Of a stretch of 64,000 bases of DNA, positions 30,377 through 34,381 are shown in pieces. A program made the translations under genes and the position numbers. The DNA is from an uncultured Solirubrobacteraceae bacterium (GTDB taxonomy: Bacteria; Actinomycetota; Thermoleophilia; Solirubrobacterales; Solirubrobacteraceae): positions 518,390-582,389 of the forward strand of contig CAVYMP010000010.1 in NCBI GenBank assembly GCA_963769565.1, written 5' to 3'. The notes beneath the pieces are model-generated. The model searched no databases and was not told where the DNA came from. It was given only the letters and a program-made list of their open reading frames with translations. Each line of letters opens with the position of its first letter. Position 1 is the stretch's first letter.

Positions 30377-30895
30377 ATGGCTGAAACCGAGAAGGCGATC
30401 CTTGCAGGCGGGTGTTTCTGGGGTATGCAGGATTTGATCCGCGAGCTCGATGGTGTGATCAGTTCGCGCGTTGGCTACGCGGGCGGCGACACGCCCAACG
30501 CGACCTACCGCAACCACGGCTCGCATGCGGAGGCGATTGAGATTCTGTTCGACCCAGACCGAATCTCCTATCGAGACCTGCTCGAGTTCTTCTTTCAGAT
30601 TCACGATCCGACGACGAAGGGTCGTCAGGGCAACGATGTCGGCCCGAGCTATCGCTCGGCGATCTACTACGTCGATGACGAGCAGCGCTGTACCGCGGAG
30701 GCCACGATCAATGACGTCGATGCCTCCGGCTTGTGGCCCGGCAAGGTTGTCACGGAGGTGGCGCCGGCCGGACCGTTTTGGGAGGCGGAGCCCGAGCACC
30801 AGGACTACCTTGAGCGCTACCCCGACGGGTACACCTGCCACTTCGTCCGTCCAGGCTGGAAGCTGCCCCGCCGACCGCAGGAGGCGGCGCACTGA
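30377..30895 (+). CDS. msrA: Peptide methionine sulfoxide reductase A
   Basis: [27 protein letters not shown] and GYTCH. Confidence 0.96.
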
Positions 30896-31049
30896 GACAG
30901 CCGATGCAGGAGGCCGTGCCACCGGCGCTCTGATCAGCCCGGAGGCGTCCGCCGACGCGCTGATCCGGCGCCTCGACGGCGATGTCACCGGCGAAATCTG
31001 GGACGTCGCGGACGAGCGCCCGAACCCATCCGCGAGCACCGAGAGGATC

Positions 31050-31538
31050 ATGGCCAGGCTCAACCGCGGCGACGGCTTCCCGTCGCTGACCATCACACCG
31101 GTCGACGGCCGGCCGCTGGAGCTGCCCCGTGCGCCCGCCGGCCACTTTGGCGTCGTGCTGCTCTACCGCGGCGGCTGGTGCCCCTACTGCAACGCCCAGC
31201 TGCGCGCGTTCCAGCGCGTCGCCGACCGGCTCGAGGAGCTCGGCATCCGCGTTGTCGCGTTGTCGGTCGACGATGAGGCGAGCACGCGCCAGACCATCGC
31301 CGAACACGGCCTCGAGTTCCCCGTCGGCTACGGCGCCGACACCGTCGCGGCGGCCAGCGGCGCGTTCGTCAACGACGATCCGCGGTACCTGCAGTCCACC
31401 GGGTTCGTGCTCGACCCCGCGGGTCGGCTGATCGTCGGCGTCTACTCCAGCAGCGCGATCGGCCGGCTCGTGCCCGAGGATGTCATCGGCCTCGTCAAGT
31501 ACGTGCGCGACAACGACGCCCACGAGCAGGCTGCCTAA
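31050..31538 (+). CDS. AhpC/TSA peroxiredoxin-like redoxin
   Basis: YRGGWCPYC and ALSVD; stop TAA lies inside the IS110 end. Confidence 0.88.
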   Translation: MARLNRGDGFPSLTITPVDGRPLELPRAPAGHFGVVLLYRGGWCPYCNAQLRAFQRVADRLEELGIRVVALSVDDEASTRQTIAEHGLEFPVGYGADTVAAASGAFVNDDPRYLQSTGFVLDPAGRLIVGVYSSSAIGRLVPEDVIGLVKYVRDNDAHEQAA

Positions 31539-31546
31539 TGGTTTTG

Positions 31547-32743
31547 TCAAGCAGTTTTTGCGAGTGTGATCTCGAACGGGCGGCGGTCGCGCAGGATCGC
31601 GTGAAGGACGTTGACGCGGCGGCGGGCGAGCGCGAGGACGGCTTGGTGATGGCGTTTGCCTTCGGCTCGTTTGCGGTCATAGAAGGCGCGGCTGGTGGGG
31701 TGGCTCAGCGAGCAGAACGCGGATTGGTAGAAGACGCGTTTGAGCGCCTTGTTGCCGGCTCTGGCGCGTTGGAGGTAGTGGACTTTTCCGGACTGTCTGA
31801 GCACGGGCGCCAGGCCCGCGGCGGAGGCGAGATGGTCTGGGCTTGGGAAGCGAGCCAGGGTGCCTGCCTCGGCGATGAACTCAGCGGTGAGCGTGGCCCC
31901 CATCCCGGGCAGGCTGCGGATGAGGGCTGCGTCAGGGTGACGTTGCAACGCCACCTCGATCTGTTGGTCGAGGGTGATGAGTCGTTGACGGCCTTGGCGC
32001 AGCTCGAGCGCGAGCTCTCTGATGATCTCGGCGCTGAGCTGCTCGCCCGGAAGGACGAGTCGCTGGGCGGTGGCGGCGGTCAGGGCATCCTCGACGAGCT
32101 GATCGATATGACGGCGCGACAGGCCACCAGCGCGCAGCAGGTAGTCGGTCAGTCGCGTGCGGCCGGCGCGACGGATCTCGGCTGCGGTCACGTAACGCGA
32201 CAGCAGCCACAGGCCGCCTTTCTGGGTGGGATCCACGACCCGTTCCAGTCCGGGATGAATCGCGACCAAGAGCTCTCTGAGTCGCTGGACACGACGGGTT
32301 TGGTCAGCGACCAGATCGCGGCGACGGCCGACCAGCAACCGGACCTCGATGTCGATCTCCTCGCCGATGTCGACCGACCGCAGGTTTGGGCGCACCCGCA
32401 CCTGGTCGGCGATCACCGCAGCGTCTCGCGGGTCGCTCTTGTTCTCCCCGCCTGCGGTTCGCTGACGAGCACGGTTGACCGCCAGGCCGGGCACGTGAAC
32501 CACCGCGACGCCGGCCTGATTGAGCATCGCCGTCACCAAGCCGGCGATCCCGCCGATCACGTCGATCCCGACGCGCACCGGCCCGTGGGCGTCGGCCCAG
32601 CCCTCCAGGTCACTGATCAGGGCATCGATCGAGGCCGGGTCGTTCTCAACCCGCCGGCTGGCCAGCACCGCGTTAGTGGTGGCGTCGATCGCGCAGACCC
32701 AGTGGAACTCCTTGGCGATATCGATCCCGACAACAACTGCCAT
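31547..32743 (-). CDS. IS110 recombinase (RuvC-like + Tnp domain), 398 aa
   Basis: GIDIAK, GID, KSDPRDA, SLPGMG and GLAPVLRQSG. Confidence 0.95.
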   Translation of the reverse strand: MAVVVGIDIAKEFHWVCAIDATTNAVLASRRVENDPASIDALISDLEGWADAHGPVRVGIDVIGGIAGLVTAMLNQAGVAVVHVPGLAVNRARQRTAGGENKSDPRDAAVIADQVRVRPNLRSVDIGEEIDIEVRLLVGRRRDLVADQTRRVQRLRELLVAIHPGLERVVDPTQKGGLWLLSRYVTAAEIRRAGRTRLTDYLLRAGGLSRRHIDQLVEDALTAATAQRLVLPGEQLSAEIIRELALELRQGRQRLITLDQQIEVALQRHPDAALIRSLPGMGATLTAEFIAEAGTLARFPSPDHLASAAGLAPVLRQSGKVHYLQRARAGNKALKRVFYQSAFCSLSHPTSRAFYDRKRAEGKRHHQAVLALARRRVNVLHAILRDRRPFEITLAKTA

Positions 32744-32774
32744 TGCGCTCCTCTCGTCCTTGTCGATGACGCGT

Positions 32775-32948
32775 GCTTTCCCGGTGCCGGCATCGCCCTA
32801 CATAGCGATCGAGTCGCGGTGCCTAATCAGCGGTCTGGAGAAGCGGTGAAGCAGGGGGATCAGCCTCCTGAGCCATCGAGGGCAGCCAGCATGAAAACCA
32901 TCCCTGCTTCACCCACGCACCCCGACTCTGACAACTCCCGGGGACGCA
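32775..32948 (-). ncRNA. Predicted IS110 bridge RNA (~175 nt)
   Basis: 5' hairpin; 11-bp stem 32846-56/32902-12 encloses target guides; second stem-loop carries donor guides. Confidence 0.8.
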
Positions 32949-32989
32949 ATCTAAAAGGTAGGACGGCATGAGCGGCGTCCTGGTCGAGC

Positions 32990-34381
32990 GTGAGAAGGCG
33001 TTGCGGGTATCGGAGACTGGCCTTGTCCGCCCCCGCCGATAAGCGTCTCCTGGCGCCCGACGACCGGCTCGGTCTGTTCGCCACCGTCGCGATCGTCGTG
33101 GGCGGGATCGTTGGCACCGGCATTTTCACCGTCCCCGCTGCGATCGCCGCCTACGGCTGGCTCAGCGTGCCCGCGTTCGCCGTGGTCAGTGCCGGCTCAC
33201 TCACGCTCGCGCTGACGTTCGCGCGGCTCGTGCGCCGGACCCGGCGCTCGGGCGGCCCATACGCCTACGCCGACGATGCGTTTGGGCGGTTCGCCGGATT
33301 CCTCTCCGCCTGGACATATTGGATCCAAGGGTGGACCGGGCATGCCACGATCGCGGTTGCCGCCGCGGGCTACGCCGAGGCGCTGTTCGGGCTTCGGTCG
33401 GGCGGGGTGACGACGTTCGCCGTGGCTGGTGCCGTGCTCTGGCTTCCGGCGCTCAACAACCTCGTCGGCACCCGGTCGGTGGGTGCGGTGGCCGTGGCCA
33501 CGACTGTCCTGAAGGTCACGGCCCTGGCGATCGTCGCCGTGGCCGGATTGCTCGCGTTCCACGCCGGCCACGTGGGGCCAGTGCGCGCGCATGGCGGCTC
33601 GTGGACGGCGCTGCCCAGCGCATCCGCCCTGCTGCTCTTCTCGTTCCTGGGCATGGAGAGCGTCGCCGTCGCGACCAACCGCGTGCGTGATCCCGAGCGC
33701 AACGTTCCGCGAGCGATCATCGCCGGCGTGGCGGGCGTGGCAGTGCTCTACCTGGCGAGCACGCTGGCCGTCCAAGGTACGGTGCCGCAGGCGCGACTCG
33801 TCGAATCCGGCGCCCCGTTCGCCGACGCCGCGCAGGCGATCTTCGGCGGCGCATGGGCGGCGAAGGCGATCGCTGCGGTGGCGCTGATCTCGGCGCTCGG
33901 CGCGCTCAACGGCTTCAACCTGGTCAACTCCGAGATGGCGGCGGGCGCCGCACGGGACGGCCTCTTCCCACCCCCGCTGCGCCGTCGCGTGCGCGGACTG
34001 CCCGTGCCGGCATTGCTGCTCAACGCGATCCTCGCCACCGCACTGATCGCGTTCAGCGCGGCGGGAGACCTGCTGGCCGTCTTCACCACGCTCGCGCTGT
34101 TGAGCACGTTCGTCTACGTCTTCGGCTACGTCCTCTCCGTGGCCGCCGAACTGTCGCACTCGCTCGCCCGGCGCACCCCCGCAGGCCCACCGACGGGGAC
34201 ACTGGCGATCGCCGCGATCGCCCTGGCAATGGCGTTCTCGCTGTGGATGGCAGGTGCTACGGGCGCCGAGGCCGCGCAGCGCGGCACCGTGCTGATCCTG
34301 ATCGGCATCCCGGTCTACGTGATCACTCGAAGGACGAACGGGAGCCGGGAGGCACGGGCAGGGGGACCGATTGAGCATTGA
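32990..34381 (+). CDS. APC-family amino acid permease (true start may be ATG 32968 with an indel)
   Basis: GGIVGTGIF, GGPYAY, FLGMES, PERNVPRA and ARDGLFP. Confidence 0.9.
   Translation: MRRRCGYRRLALSAPADKRLLAPDDRLGLFATVAIVVGGIVGTGIFTVPAAIAAYGWLSVPAFAVVSAGSLTLALTFARLVRRTRRSGGPYAYADDAFGRFAGFLSAWTYWIQGWTGHATIAVAAAGYAEALFGLRSGGVTTFAVAGAVLWLPALNNLVGTRSVGAVAVATTVLKVTALAIVAVAGLLAFHAGHVGPVRAHGGSWTALPSASALLLFSFLGMESVAVATNRVRDPERNVPRAIIAGVAGVAVLYLASTLAVQGTVPQARLVESGAPFADAAQAIFGGAWAAKAIAAVALISALGALNGFNLVNSEMAAGAARDGLFPPPLRRRVRGLPVPALLLNAILATALIAFSAAGDLLAVFTTLALLSTFVYVFGYVLSVAAELSHSLARRTPAGPPTGTLAIAAIALAMAFSLWMAGATGAEAAQRGTVLILIGIPVYVITRRTNGSREARAGGPIEH

What the first reader, a model, noticed from the sequence alone, without database searches (positions are those of the whole stretch)
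32775..32948. IS110 bridge RNA with readable target and donor guides and a GC core
Seen (element/minus orientation): the reconstructed target is GCTCAT-GC-AGCCTG and the donor junction is CCATTAG-GC-CGTCCTAC. The non-coding left end folds into a 5' hairpin and two larger loops. Loop 1 is closed by a perfect 11-bp stem (GTGAAGCAGGG/CCCTGCTTCAC). It contains TCATGC (32894-32889, equal to left target plus core) and AGGCTG (32866-32861, reverse complement of CAGCCT). Loop 2 contains ATTAGGC (32827-32821, equal to left donor plus core) and GTAGGGCG (32801-32794, 7/8 to right donor with a G:T wobble). Known: IS621-type IS110 elements use a bispecific bridge RNA of this layout, with a CT core. Inference: this is an intact, programmable RNA-guided recombinase from a high-GC actinobacterial branch, with a GC core. 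The right target and right donor guides pair one nucleotide out of register with each other, which may be a subfamily trait.
Basis: partly seen in the sequence, partly recalled or inferred. Interest (0 to 1): 0.85.

Follow-up and report, generated by a model that had tools for sequence, protein, structure and literature searches.

The report
IS110 bridge RNA, guide register corrected

Summary
The element lies on the minus strand at about 32964-31532 (1433 bp). It has a 398-aa DEDD_Tnp_IS110 + Transposase_20 recombinase and a 222-nt non-coding left end.

Across 80 homologous loci, the stem closing loop 1 shows many compensatory changes. All four guide segments covary with the flanking DNA (permutation 0/10000 for both target guides).

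The interpretation needs one correction. Empty sites show the core is the second GC. These come from two metagenome contigs for the sister copy in this genome and two Amycolatopsis genomes for a homolog.

- **Inferred target (this copy):** TCATGCC-G(C/T)-CTGC.
- **Donor:** TTAGGCA-GC-CCTAC.
- **Re-read guides:** LTG UCAUGC(U); RTG GGAG+GC followed by handshake UG; LDG (A)UUAGGCA; RDG GUAGG+GC followed by handshake GA.

A promoter split across the circle junction is conserved. No RNA or activity data exist.

Verdict: a new member of a known kind. In passing, an in-phase antisense ORF spans the whole element, and the target looks like a ribosome-binding site plus start codon, as for IS900.

The parts
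31530..32964 (-). Whole IS110-group element with both core copies. Core at the left junction is GT (32964-32963); core at the right junction is GC (31531-31530). The element is 1433 bp counting one core copy.
   Evidence: A second, >99% identical copy lies in the same genome and a third in another MAG; they diverge exactly here. Empty sites for the sister copy and for a homolog fix the register. Metagenome contigs break at 31523/31528 and 32962-32974.
32965..32971 (-). Left target, positions 1-7: TCATGCC (flanking DNA, not part of the element).
   Evidence: Positions 1-6 equal LTG UCAUGC. Position 7 varies among copies of one element.
31523..31529 (-). Right target: CTGCTCG (flanking DNA). It has one mismatch to RTG, which expects CTCC.
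   Evidence: The 99% identical element in L003 sits next to CTCC, a perfect match.
32955..32960 (-). -10 box TACCTT (TANNNT type) of the promoter split across the circle junction. It overlaps the right donor CCTACC (32962-32957).
   Evidence: TACC(T/G/C)T sits at the same place in 40 of 42 distinct elements, exactly 17 nt from the -35 across the joined ends.
31545..31550 (-). -35 box TTGACA in the right end.
   Evidence: TTGAC(A/T/G) is conserved in 40/42 elements with a 17-nt spacer across the RE-core-LE junction.
31532..31538 (-). Left donor, positions 1-7: TTAGGCA (element right terminus).
   Evidence: It equals LDG UUAGGCA. Its last base, A, is complementary to the first handshake nucleotide of the target loop.
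32915..32947 (-). 5' stem-loop of the bridge RNA.
   Evidence: Folds at -13.6 kcal/mol, z = -1.96. It is present in most homologs and absent from six short left ends.
32845..32913 (-). Target-binding loop module. Closing stem: 32913-32902 pairs with 32856-32845, and 32899-32898 pairs with 32858-32857.
   Evidence: 14 pairs, 12 with changes on both sides in 38 sequences. z = -3.42.
32888..32894 (-). Left target guide UCAUGCU. Positions 1-6 specify the target; position 7 does not.
   Evidence: LTG 1-6 against LT 1-6: 4.76/6 paired against 3.27 in permutations, 0/10000. Examples of covariation: CTACAG, TCACTC, TCAGGC, TCATCAC.
32861..32868 (-). Right target guide GGAG (32868-32865), core-binding GC (32864-32863), handshake UG (32862-32861).
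   Evidence: RTG against RT: 3.89/5 against 2.81, 0/10000. The core binder changes to AC in elements with a GT core. The first handshake nucleotide complements donor position 7 in 52/55 loci.
32786..32835 (-). Donor-binding loop module. Short closing helix G(A)CCG/CGGC and inner hairpin GCGA/UCGC.
   Evidence: Two 4-bp helices, 98-99% paired, with three pairs showing changes on both sides. It is thermodynamically weak on its own.
32820..32827 (-). Left donor guide AUUAGGCA.
   Evidence: Equals the element's right terminus. Covaries in homologs, for example TCAGGCT with TCAGGCT, and TTGGGCT with TTAGGCT by a G:T wobble.
32793..32801 (-). Right donor guide GUAGG (32801-32797), core-binding GC (32796-32795), handshake GA (32794-32793).
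   Evidence: Reverse complement of GC-CCTAC at the left terminus. GUAAG goes with CTTAC in L054/L068, and a GUAGG-AC core binder goes with core GT in L014/L059.
31547..32743 (-). Recombinase gene, 398 aa (P0001).
   Evidence: Pfam DEDD_Tnp_IS110 8.5e-39 and Transposase_20 6.9e-20. PDB hits: ISCro4 transposase 9t56 and IS621 transposase 8wt6. D8, D61, D104, D107 and S318 are invariant in 64 homologs.

Best explanation
The region 32948-32775 is the bridge-RNA gene in the left end of an intact IS110-group insertion sequence. The element lies on the minus strand at about 32964-31532.

**Proposed mechanism (inferred by homology to IS621).** On excision the two ends join through the 2-nt core. This brings a -35 box (TTGACA, right end) exactly 17 nt from a -10 box (TACCTT, left end). 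An RNA of about 170-200 nt is then transcribed, with a 5' hairpin and two internal loops.

**Loop 1 reads the target 5'-TCA(T/C)GC-N-GC-CTCC.**
[quoted passage not shown] - The next two nucleotides (UG) match donor positions 6-7 (CA). They would act as a handshake guide after top-strand exchange.

**Loop 2 reads the donor 5'-(A)TTAGGCA-GC-CCTAC, formed by the joined ends.**
- LDG AUUAGGCA and RDG GUAGG plus GC do the reading.
- The handshake G can pair with target position 7 when it is C, the commonest base there.

The DDDD+Ser recombinase then exchanges strands at the core.

**Shown here:** the anatomy, RNA-level covariation, guide-flank covariation, the true target from empty sites, the conserved split promoter, and recent mobility (near-identical copies at different sites).

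**Inferred:** transcription, RNA-protein binding, the strand-exchange chemistry and programmability.
For: - **Recombinase.** Pfam DEDD_Tnp_IS110 + Transposase_20. PDB hits to IS621 and ISCro4 transposases. Catalytic-type residues invariant in 64 homologs.
- **Copies.** Two copies in this genome and a 99% identical one in another Solirubrobacteraceae MAG, each with different flanks. Further flanks appear in soil-metagenome contigs.
- **RNA structure.** In 38 diverse left ends, 98.1% of cells pair and 81 cells have changes on both sides, against 17.9 in shuffles (0/500). The slid controls collapse.
- **Guide-flank covariation.** LTG/LT and RTG/RT both give 0/10000 in permutations. The core binders of RTG and RDG change to AC in elements whose core is GT. 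RDG GUAAG goes with CTTAC.
- **Handshake.** The first handshake nucleotide of the target loop complements donor position 7 in 52/55 loci. This is the relation described for IS110 orthologues in PMC11208158.
- **Empty sites.** ...GGTCATGCCGCCACCTCC... in two metagenome contigs for the sister copy. ...GCTCATGCCGCCTCCTCC... in two Amycolatopsis genomes for homolog L018. Both equal LT7-GC-RT.
- **Position 7.** Target position 7 differs among copies of one element in one genome: G, T and C in L022-L024.
- **Split promoter.** TTGAC(A/T/G), 17 nt, TACC(T/G/C)T in 40/42 elements, as described for IS621 in PMC11208160.
Against: - There is no RNA evidence. No listed run holding the sequence is on record as RNA.
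- No empty site was found for the window copy itself, so its target is inferred from the sister copy and from homologs.
- The donor-loop module does not fold better than shuffled sequence (z = +1.31), and its closing helix is only 4 bp.
- LTG and LDG do not fully pair with the core (LTG has GG, LDG has CC/CU opposite GC), unlike the published IS621 model.
- The window copy has GT at the left junction but GC at the right junction. Its right target has one mismatch to RTG.
- Rfam 15 gave no match for this region, so no curated model confirms the RNA.
Confidence: 0.9

Rival explanations
1. One reading: the core is the first GC. The target would be GCTCAT-GC-AGCCTG and the donor CCATTAG-GC-CGTCCTAC. 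LTG and LDG would cover the core, and RTG and RDG would be offset by one nucleotide.
For: Both junctions carry a GC at that position. LTG UCAUGC and LDG AUUAGGC would then both end in the core, as in the published IS621 scheme. Elements L067/L068 have TC at that position in both LTG (TCACTC) and LDG (TTGCTC).
Against: - Empty sites read TCATGCC-GC-C..., not TCATGC-A-GC-C....
- The base after TCATGC differs among copies of one element, while the base after ATTAGGC is constant.
- In L059 the first dinucleotides differ between the junctions (CG against CC), while the second ones agree (GT and GT) and match the AC core binders.
Confidence: 0.02
2. The conserved left end is not a guide RNA. It would be a DNA-level recombinase binding site, or the 5' UTR or promoter of the recombinase gene, and the matches to the flanks would be leftovers of site-specific recombination.
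For: There is no expression data. The donor-loop module is thermodynamically weak. The left terminus also carries a -10 box.
Against: Compensatory changes on both sides in 16 of 25 stem pairs point to selection on an RNA fold. Segments inside the loops change together with flanking host DNA that is not part of the element. A protein site or a UTR does not explain that. Homologous recombinases work this way in solved complexes.
Confidence: 0.04
3. The family is active, but the window copy is a crippled or immobile copy.
For: The window copy has private changes relative to the sister copy and L003: T instead of C in the core at the left junction, C instead of T just 3' of LDG, one more in the 3' tail, and a Pro/Gln difference in the protein.
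Against: The reading frame is intact at 398 aa, with all invariant catalytic-type residues. All four guide segments are identical to those of the other copies. G:U pairing tolerates the core T. It is the sister copy, not this one, that carries a frameshift.
Confidence: 0.1

Closest known systems
IS621 bridge recombinase system of E. coli (IS110 group; PMC11208160, PMC11208158)
   Same: - Left-end ncRNA with a 5' stem-loop, a target-binding loop and a donor-binding loop.
[quoted passage not shown]
- The 3' side is complementary to the core plus the right half-site and is followed by 2 handshake nucleotides.
- 7-nt left halves and a 2-nt core.
- A promoter rebuilt across the RE-LE junction.
- RuvC-like plus Tnp domains with a catalytic Ser.
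   Different: - Core is GC (GT in a few relatives), not CT.
- The protein is only distantly related (phmmer 1.2e-14, Tnp domain only).
- The second acidic residue is Asp, not Glu.
- LTG and LDG each pair with only one core position.
- Target position 7 is unspecified.
- The target is a ribosome-binding-site/start-codon look-alike.
IS900 (with IS901/IS902/IS116) of mycobacteria and Streptomyces, IS110 family
   Same: - Orientation-specific insertion into CATG...CTCC. The IS900 motif is CATGNNNNNNTCTCCTT (PMC8141618); here it is TCATGC-N-GC-CTCC.
- An ORF on the strand opposite to the transposase spans the element, like the 'hed' ORF.
   Different: The spacing between CATG and CTCC differs (7 nt in the IS900 motif, 4 nt here). 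I did not fetch IS900 itself, so homology of its left end to this RNA is untested. No paper in the searched library links IS900 to a bridge RNA.
ISCro4 transposase (PDB 9t56)
   Same: Best solved-structure match (5.9e-15). It aligns over both the RuvC-like part (KSDPRDA with KTDAVDA) and the Tnp part (QSGK with ESGS).
   Different: Low identity. Nothing about its RNA was compared here.
IS1111-group elements (seekRNA / bridge RNA in the right end)
   Same: A DEDD-type recombinase with an RNA guide that reads both target and donor (PMC11208160).
   Different: There the RNA lies in the right end and longer subterminal inverted repeats are present. Here the RNA is in a 222-nt left end and the right end is about 15 nt past the stop codon.

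Membership tests
IS110 family, IS110 group (bridge recombinase elements) | Recombinase with an N-terminal RuvC-like DEDD domain and a C-terminal Tnp (Transposase_20) domain | tested here: met
   PF01548 8.5e-39 (residues 5-164, full profile) and PF02371 6.9e-20. PDB hits to IS621 and ISCro4 transposases.
IS110 family, IS110 group (bridge recombinase elements) | Catalytic acidic tetrad plus Ser (IS621: D11, E60, D102, D105, S241) | tested here: met
   D8, D61, D104, D107 and S318 are invariant in 64 distinct homologs. D104/D107 and S318 align to the ISCro4 motifs. Position 61 is Asp where ISCro4 has Glu. Its equivalence rests on a weak alignment segment.
IS110 family, IS110 group (bridge recombinase elements) | Long non-coding left end, short right end, no terminal inverted repeats, 2-nt core at both junctions | tested here: met
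   The left end is 222 nt and the right end about 15 nt past the stop. The core is GT/GC at the junctions. Empty sites contain a single GC.
IS110 family, IS110 group (bridge recombinase elements) | Left-end RNA fold with a 5' stem-loop and two internal loops, supported by covariation | tested here: met
   25 pairs, 98.1% paired, 16 pairs with compensatory changes, 0/500 shuffles. The donor-loop helices are short and weak.
IS110 family, IS110 group (bridge recombinase elements) | Loop segments covary with target and donor DNA (LTG/RTG with the target, LDG/RDG with the donor, core included) | tested here: met
   RTG and RDG include the core. LTG and LDG each pair with only one core position, which departs from the IS621 scheme.
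IS110 family, IS110 group (bridge recombinase elements) | Handshake guides complementary to positions 6-7 of the non-cognate DNA | tested here: met
   The first target-loop handshake nucleotide complements donor position 7 in 52/55 loci. The donor-loop handshake G faces target position 7, which is C in 27 of 56 loci that carry G.
IS110 family, IS110 group (bridge recombinase elements) | Promoter reconstituted across the RE-LE junction of the circular form | tested here: met
   Sequence only: TTGACA, 17 nt, TACCTT, conserved in 40/42 elements. No circle junction was seen in the contigs.
IS110 family, IS110 group (bridge recombinase elements) | The RNA is expressed, binds the recombinase and directs recombination | not testable with these tools
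   No RNA run is listed for this sequence. This needs bench assays.
IS900-type elements (insertion at translation-initiation signals, 'hed' antisense ORF) | Target is CATG, a short spacer, then CTCC, in one orientation | tested here: met
   Junction table and empty sites. The published IS900 motif is in PMC8141618. The spacing differs by 3 nt.
IS900-type elements (insertion at translation-initiation signals, 'hed' antisense ORF) | The insertion point lies between a real ribosome-binding site and the start codon of a host gene | tested here: inconclusive
   The ATG opposite the target opens 100 or more codons at 26/35 sites, but a control frame does so at 19/35. The window copy itself sits at a stop codon, not a gene start.
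IS900-type elements (insertion at translation-initiation signals, 'hed' antisense ORF) | Sequence relatedness to IS900 itself | not tested

The most novel reading that the evidence does not exclude
This clade may be built for insertions that do not silence the downstream host gene.

Its bridge RNA is set to the universal SD-spacer-start codon signal. On the opposite strand that signal reads GGAG-GC-N-GC-(A/G)TG-A. The LTG U at position 4 pairs with A or G, so it would accept both ATG and GTG.

The element places its own ATG (the reverse complement of CAT in the CATTAGGC terminus) behind the host SD. A stop-free antisense frame of about 478 codons then runs through the recombinase gene and the bridge-RNA gene. 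It ends at a TGA that overlaps the host start codon (ATGA).

Ribosomes would therefore keep translating across the element and could re-initiate on the host gene. That would avoid polarity. It would also mean the bridge-RNA gene evolves under a second, protein-frame constraint.
Probability: 0.3. Interest if true: 0.65.

Novelty: new member of a known kind. Interest (0 to 1): 0.42.

Why it matters
It adds a well-anchored natural example of a bridge RNA with a GC core (GT in relatives). The example comes from Solirubrobacterales-type Actinomycetota. Close relatives with nearly the same guides occur in Streptomyces, Amycolatopsis, Micromonospora, several Proteobacteria and other phyla.

The guide register is fixed by empty sites rather than by eye.

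It also gives a mechanistic reading of the long-known IS900-type target (CATG...CTCC): one loop side would read the start-codon side and the other the Shine-Dalgarno side. That link is an inference. I found no paper making it in the searched library.

The biology is otherwise as expected for the family.

Tried and rejected
- **Rfam 15, permissive scan of 31400-33100:** only two chance-level hits to eukaryotic families, and no bridge-RNA model matched.
- **Whole-left-end MFE fold:** z = -1.37, dominated by long-range pairs, not informative.
- **Empty site for the window copy among 40 relatives:** the best flank match was 72% identical and did not reach the junction.
- **Exact empty-site pattern for the window copy:** 0 hits in metagenome contigs and in genome contigs.
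- **Streptomyces empty site for L071:** flank matches were about 80% identical and stopped short of the junction.
- **Sequencing runs:** 20 soil-metagenome holders, none listed as RNA.
- **Laying contigs of four runs:** no contig joined across the element and no circle junction was seen. The contigs simply break at the element ends.
- **First regex extraction of guides:** it matched the wrong places and was discarded. It was replaced by alignment-column extraction.
- **Considered and rejected:** the first GC as the core, and the 'out of register' guides as a subfamily trait.

Full report
**What is there**

Read on the minus strand, the window holds a 398-aa ORF at 32743-31547. It is preceded by 222 nt without a sense ORF and followed by about 15 nt. 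The protein carries full-length DEDD_Tnp_IS110 (8.5e-39) and Transposase_20 (6.9e-20) domains. Its only solved relatives are the ISCro4 (9t56) and IS621 (8wt6) transposases. D8, D61, D104, D107 and S318 are invariant in 64 distinct homologs.

**Copies and boundaries**

The same genome has a second copy on another contig. A 99% identical copy lies in another Solirubrobacteraceae MAG (L003). Alignments diverge just outside ...TCATGCN|GCCCTACC... on the left and ...CATTAGGCAGC|C... on the right. The sister copy has a 1-nt insertion that breaks the reading frame near codon 119. The window copy is intact.

**Where the core is**

- Both junctions carry GC-N-GC: TCAT-GC-x-GC-CCTAC on the left and ATTAG-GC-y-GC-CTCC on the right. 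A 2-nt repeat can therefore be drawn in two places.
- Against that, x differs among copies of one element in one genome (G, T and C in L022-L024), while y is constant.
- In L059 the first dinucleotides differ between the two junctions, while the second ones are both GT.
- Empty sites are decisive. Two Amycolatopsis genomes carry ...GCTCATGCCGCCTCCTCC... where homolog L018 is inserted.
- Two metagenome contigs (L111, L112) carry ...GGTCATGCCGCCACCTCC... at the locus of this genome's sister copy.
- Both equal LT7 + GC + RT.
- So the core is the second GC. The A after ATTAGGC belongs to the element, and the base after TCATGC belongs to the host.
- For the window copy, the target is inferred as TCATGCC-G(C/T)-CTGC. 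The element then runs 32964-31532 (1433 bp with one core copy).

**Guides re-read**

With the IS621 numbering (left half 1-7, core 8-9, right half from 10):

| Guide | Sequence | Window coordinates |
|---|---|---|
| LTG | UCAUGCU | 32894-32888 |
| RTG | GGAG | 32868-32865 |
| RTG core binder | GC | 32864-32863 |
| Target-loop handshake | UG | 32862-32861 |
| LDG | (A)UUAGGCA | 32827-32820 |
| RDG | GUAGG | 32801-32797 |
| RDG core binder | GC | 32796-32795 |
| Donor-loop handshake | GA | 32794-32793 |

The handshake UG is complementary to donor positions 6-7 (CA). It came from counting one or two handshake nucleotides as guide.

**Family evidence**

- Eighty homologous loci (56-99% protein identity) were fetched. 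They come from Actinomycetota, and also from isolates and MAGs of Proteobacteria and other phyla.
- Guides were taken from alignment columns, and junctions from each locus's own flanks.
- LTG 1-6 pairs with LT 1-6 at 4.76/6, against 3.27 in permutations. RTG pairs with RT at 3.89/5, against 2.81. Both give 0/10000.
- Examples: LTG CTACAG, TCACTC, TCAGGC and TCATCAC each sit next to the same word. RTG GGAC, AGACC, GGUG and GGAUG sit next to GTCC, GGTCT, CACC and CATCC.
- The core binders of RTG and RDG are AC in the elements whose core is GT. RDG GUAAG goes with CTTAC.
- The first target-loop handshake nucleotide complements donor position 7 in 52/55 loci. This is the relation reported for IS110 orthologues.
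- Target position 7 is not specified (C > G > T >> A).
- LTG and LDG each pair with only one core position, which differs from the IS621 scheme.

**RNA fold**

- RNAalifold on 38 diverse left ends recovers a 14-bp stem closing loop 1, with abundant compensatory changes.
- For a structure of four helices, 98.1% of cells pair, and 16 of 25 pairs have changes on both sides (0/500 shuffles; slid controls 36-58% paired).
- Loop 1 alone folds at z = -3.42 and the 5' hairpin at z = -1.96.
- Loop 2 alone is weak (z = +1.31). It rests on two conserved 4-bp helices.

**Promoter**

Joining the ends in silico gives TTGAC(A/T/G), exactly 17 nt, then TACC(T/G/C)T in 40 of 42 distinct elements. The -35 box lies in the right end (31550-31545). 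The -10 box lies in the left end (32960-32955), overlapping the right donor. This matches the junction promoter described for IS621. It remains sequence evidence only.

**Comparison and novelty**

The anatomy matches the IS621 bridge system in every testable defining feature. Durrant et al. predicted bridge RNAs in 85.7% of ISfinder IS110s. This is therefore a new member of a known kind. It has a GC core, a distant recombinase and partial core pairing by the left guides.

The target resembles the published IS900 motif CATGNNNNNNTCTCCTT. No paper in the searched library links IS900 to bridge RNAs. I did not fetch IS900, so that link is a lead and not a result.

**Seen in passing**

- On the strand opposite to the recombinase, an ORF starts at the ATG formed by the CAT of the right terminus. 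It stays open through the whole element, bridge-RNA gene included, and ends at the TGA formed by the TCA of the target.
- This holds in about 40 of 46 distinct elements. That frame has no internal stop, while the other two antisense frames have 6-24 stops.
- Element lengths take 15 different values, all divisible by 3. Left-end lengths are almost all congruent to 1 mod 3.
- Codon bias can explain the part opposite the recombinase gene. It does not explain the phase kept across a non-coding RNA gene.

**Limits**

- No empty site was found for the window copy itself.
- There are no RNA data, and no circle junction was seen in contigs.
- Function is inferred from homology and covariation.

Noticed in passing
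window 31538-32971 (+ strand); same in L003-L082: An antisense ORF of 477 codons spans the whole element. It starts at the ATG that is the reverse complement of CAT in the CATTAGGC terminus and ends at the TGA that is the reverse complement of TCA in the target. It is stop-free in about 40 of 46 distinct homologous elements, while the other two antisense frames have 6-24 stops. Element lengths take 15 values, all divisible by 3, and left-end lengths are nearly all congruent to 1 mod 3. It resembles the 'hed' ORF of IS900.
   Followed up: partly
L002 (G000 contig 18, sister copy), alignment A4 column 643: The second copy in this genome has a 1-nt insertion (GCGCCA[C]AAACC) that shifts the recombinase frame near codon 119. 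It could be a real defect or an assembly error.
   Followed up: partly
window 32963 (core at the left junction) versus 31530: The window copy has GT at the left junction and GC at the right junction, whereas the other copies have GC at both. Either the original target core was GT and the heteroduplex segregated, or a C-to-T change happened later.
   Followed up: no
left junctions of L004, L005, L009-L011, L014-L016, L019, L025, L029, L034, L039, L042: Many targets read TCACGC instead of TCATGC. On the opposite strand these are GTG and ATG. The U at LTG position 4 can pair with A or G, so one guide would accept both common start codons.
   Followed up: no
window 30471-31538 (+) and 32968-32971: The insertion sits at the stop codon of a peroxiredoxin-like ORF. 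The element's terminus now supplies GCC TAA. With the corrected register, the pre-insertion end was GAG CAG (G/A)CG GCA TGA. The C-terminus is therefore unchanged (EQAA) only if the old core was GC.
   Followed up: partly
L040, right junction: The right flank after the core reads CCTACGT, which looks like the start of an element left end (CCTACC). It may be an insertion next to a remnant of another copy, or chance.
   Followed up: no
L076 and L078 (two of six copies in one alphaproteobacterial MAG): One or two extra bases lie between TCATGC and the core, which suggests some slack in the spacing of the left target.
   Followed up: no
L005, L006, L008, L011, L016, L054: These Solirubrobacterales-type elements have short left ends of 184-196 nt. 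They lack the 5' stem-loop but keep both loops.
   Followed up: no
record titles of L010, L026-L029, L031, L042, L051, L053, L062, L067: Elements with nearly the same guides occur in isolates of Ensifer, Salinarimonas, Humitalea and Falsiroseomonas, and in MAGs labelled Gemmatimonadales, Limnocylindria, Dormibacteria and beta proteobacterium. This points to wide horizontal spread with a conserved target. MAG binning of repeat contigs may be unreliable.
   Followed up: no
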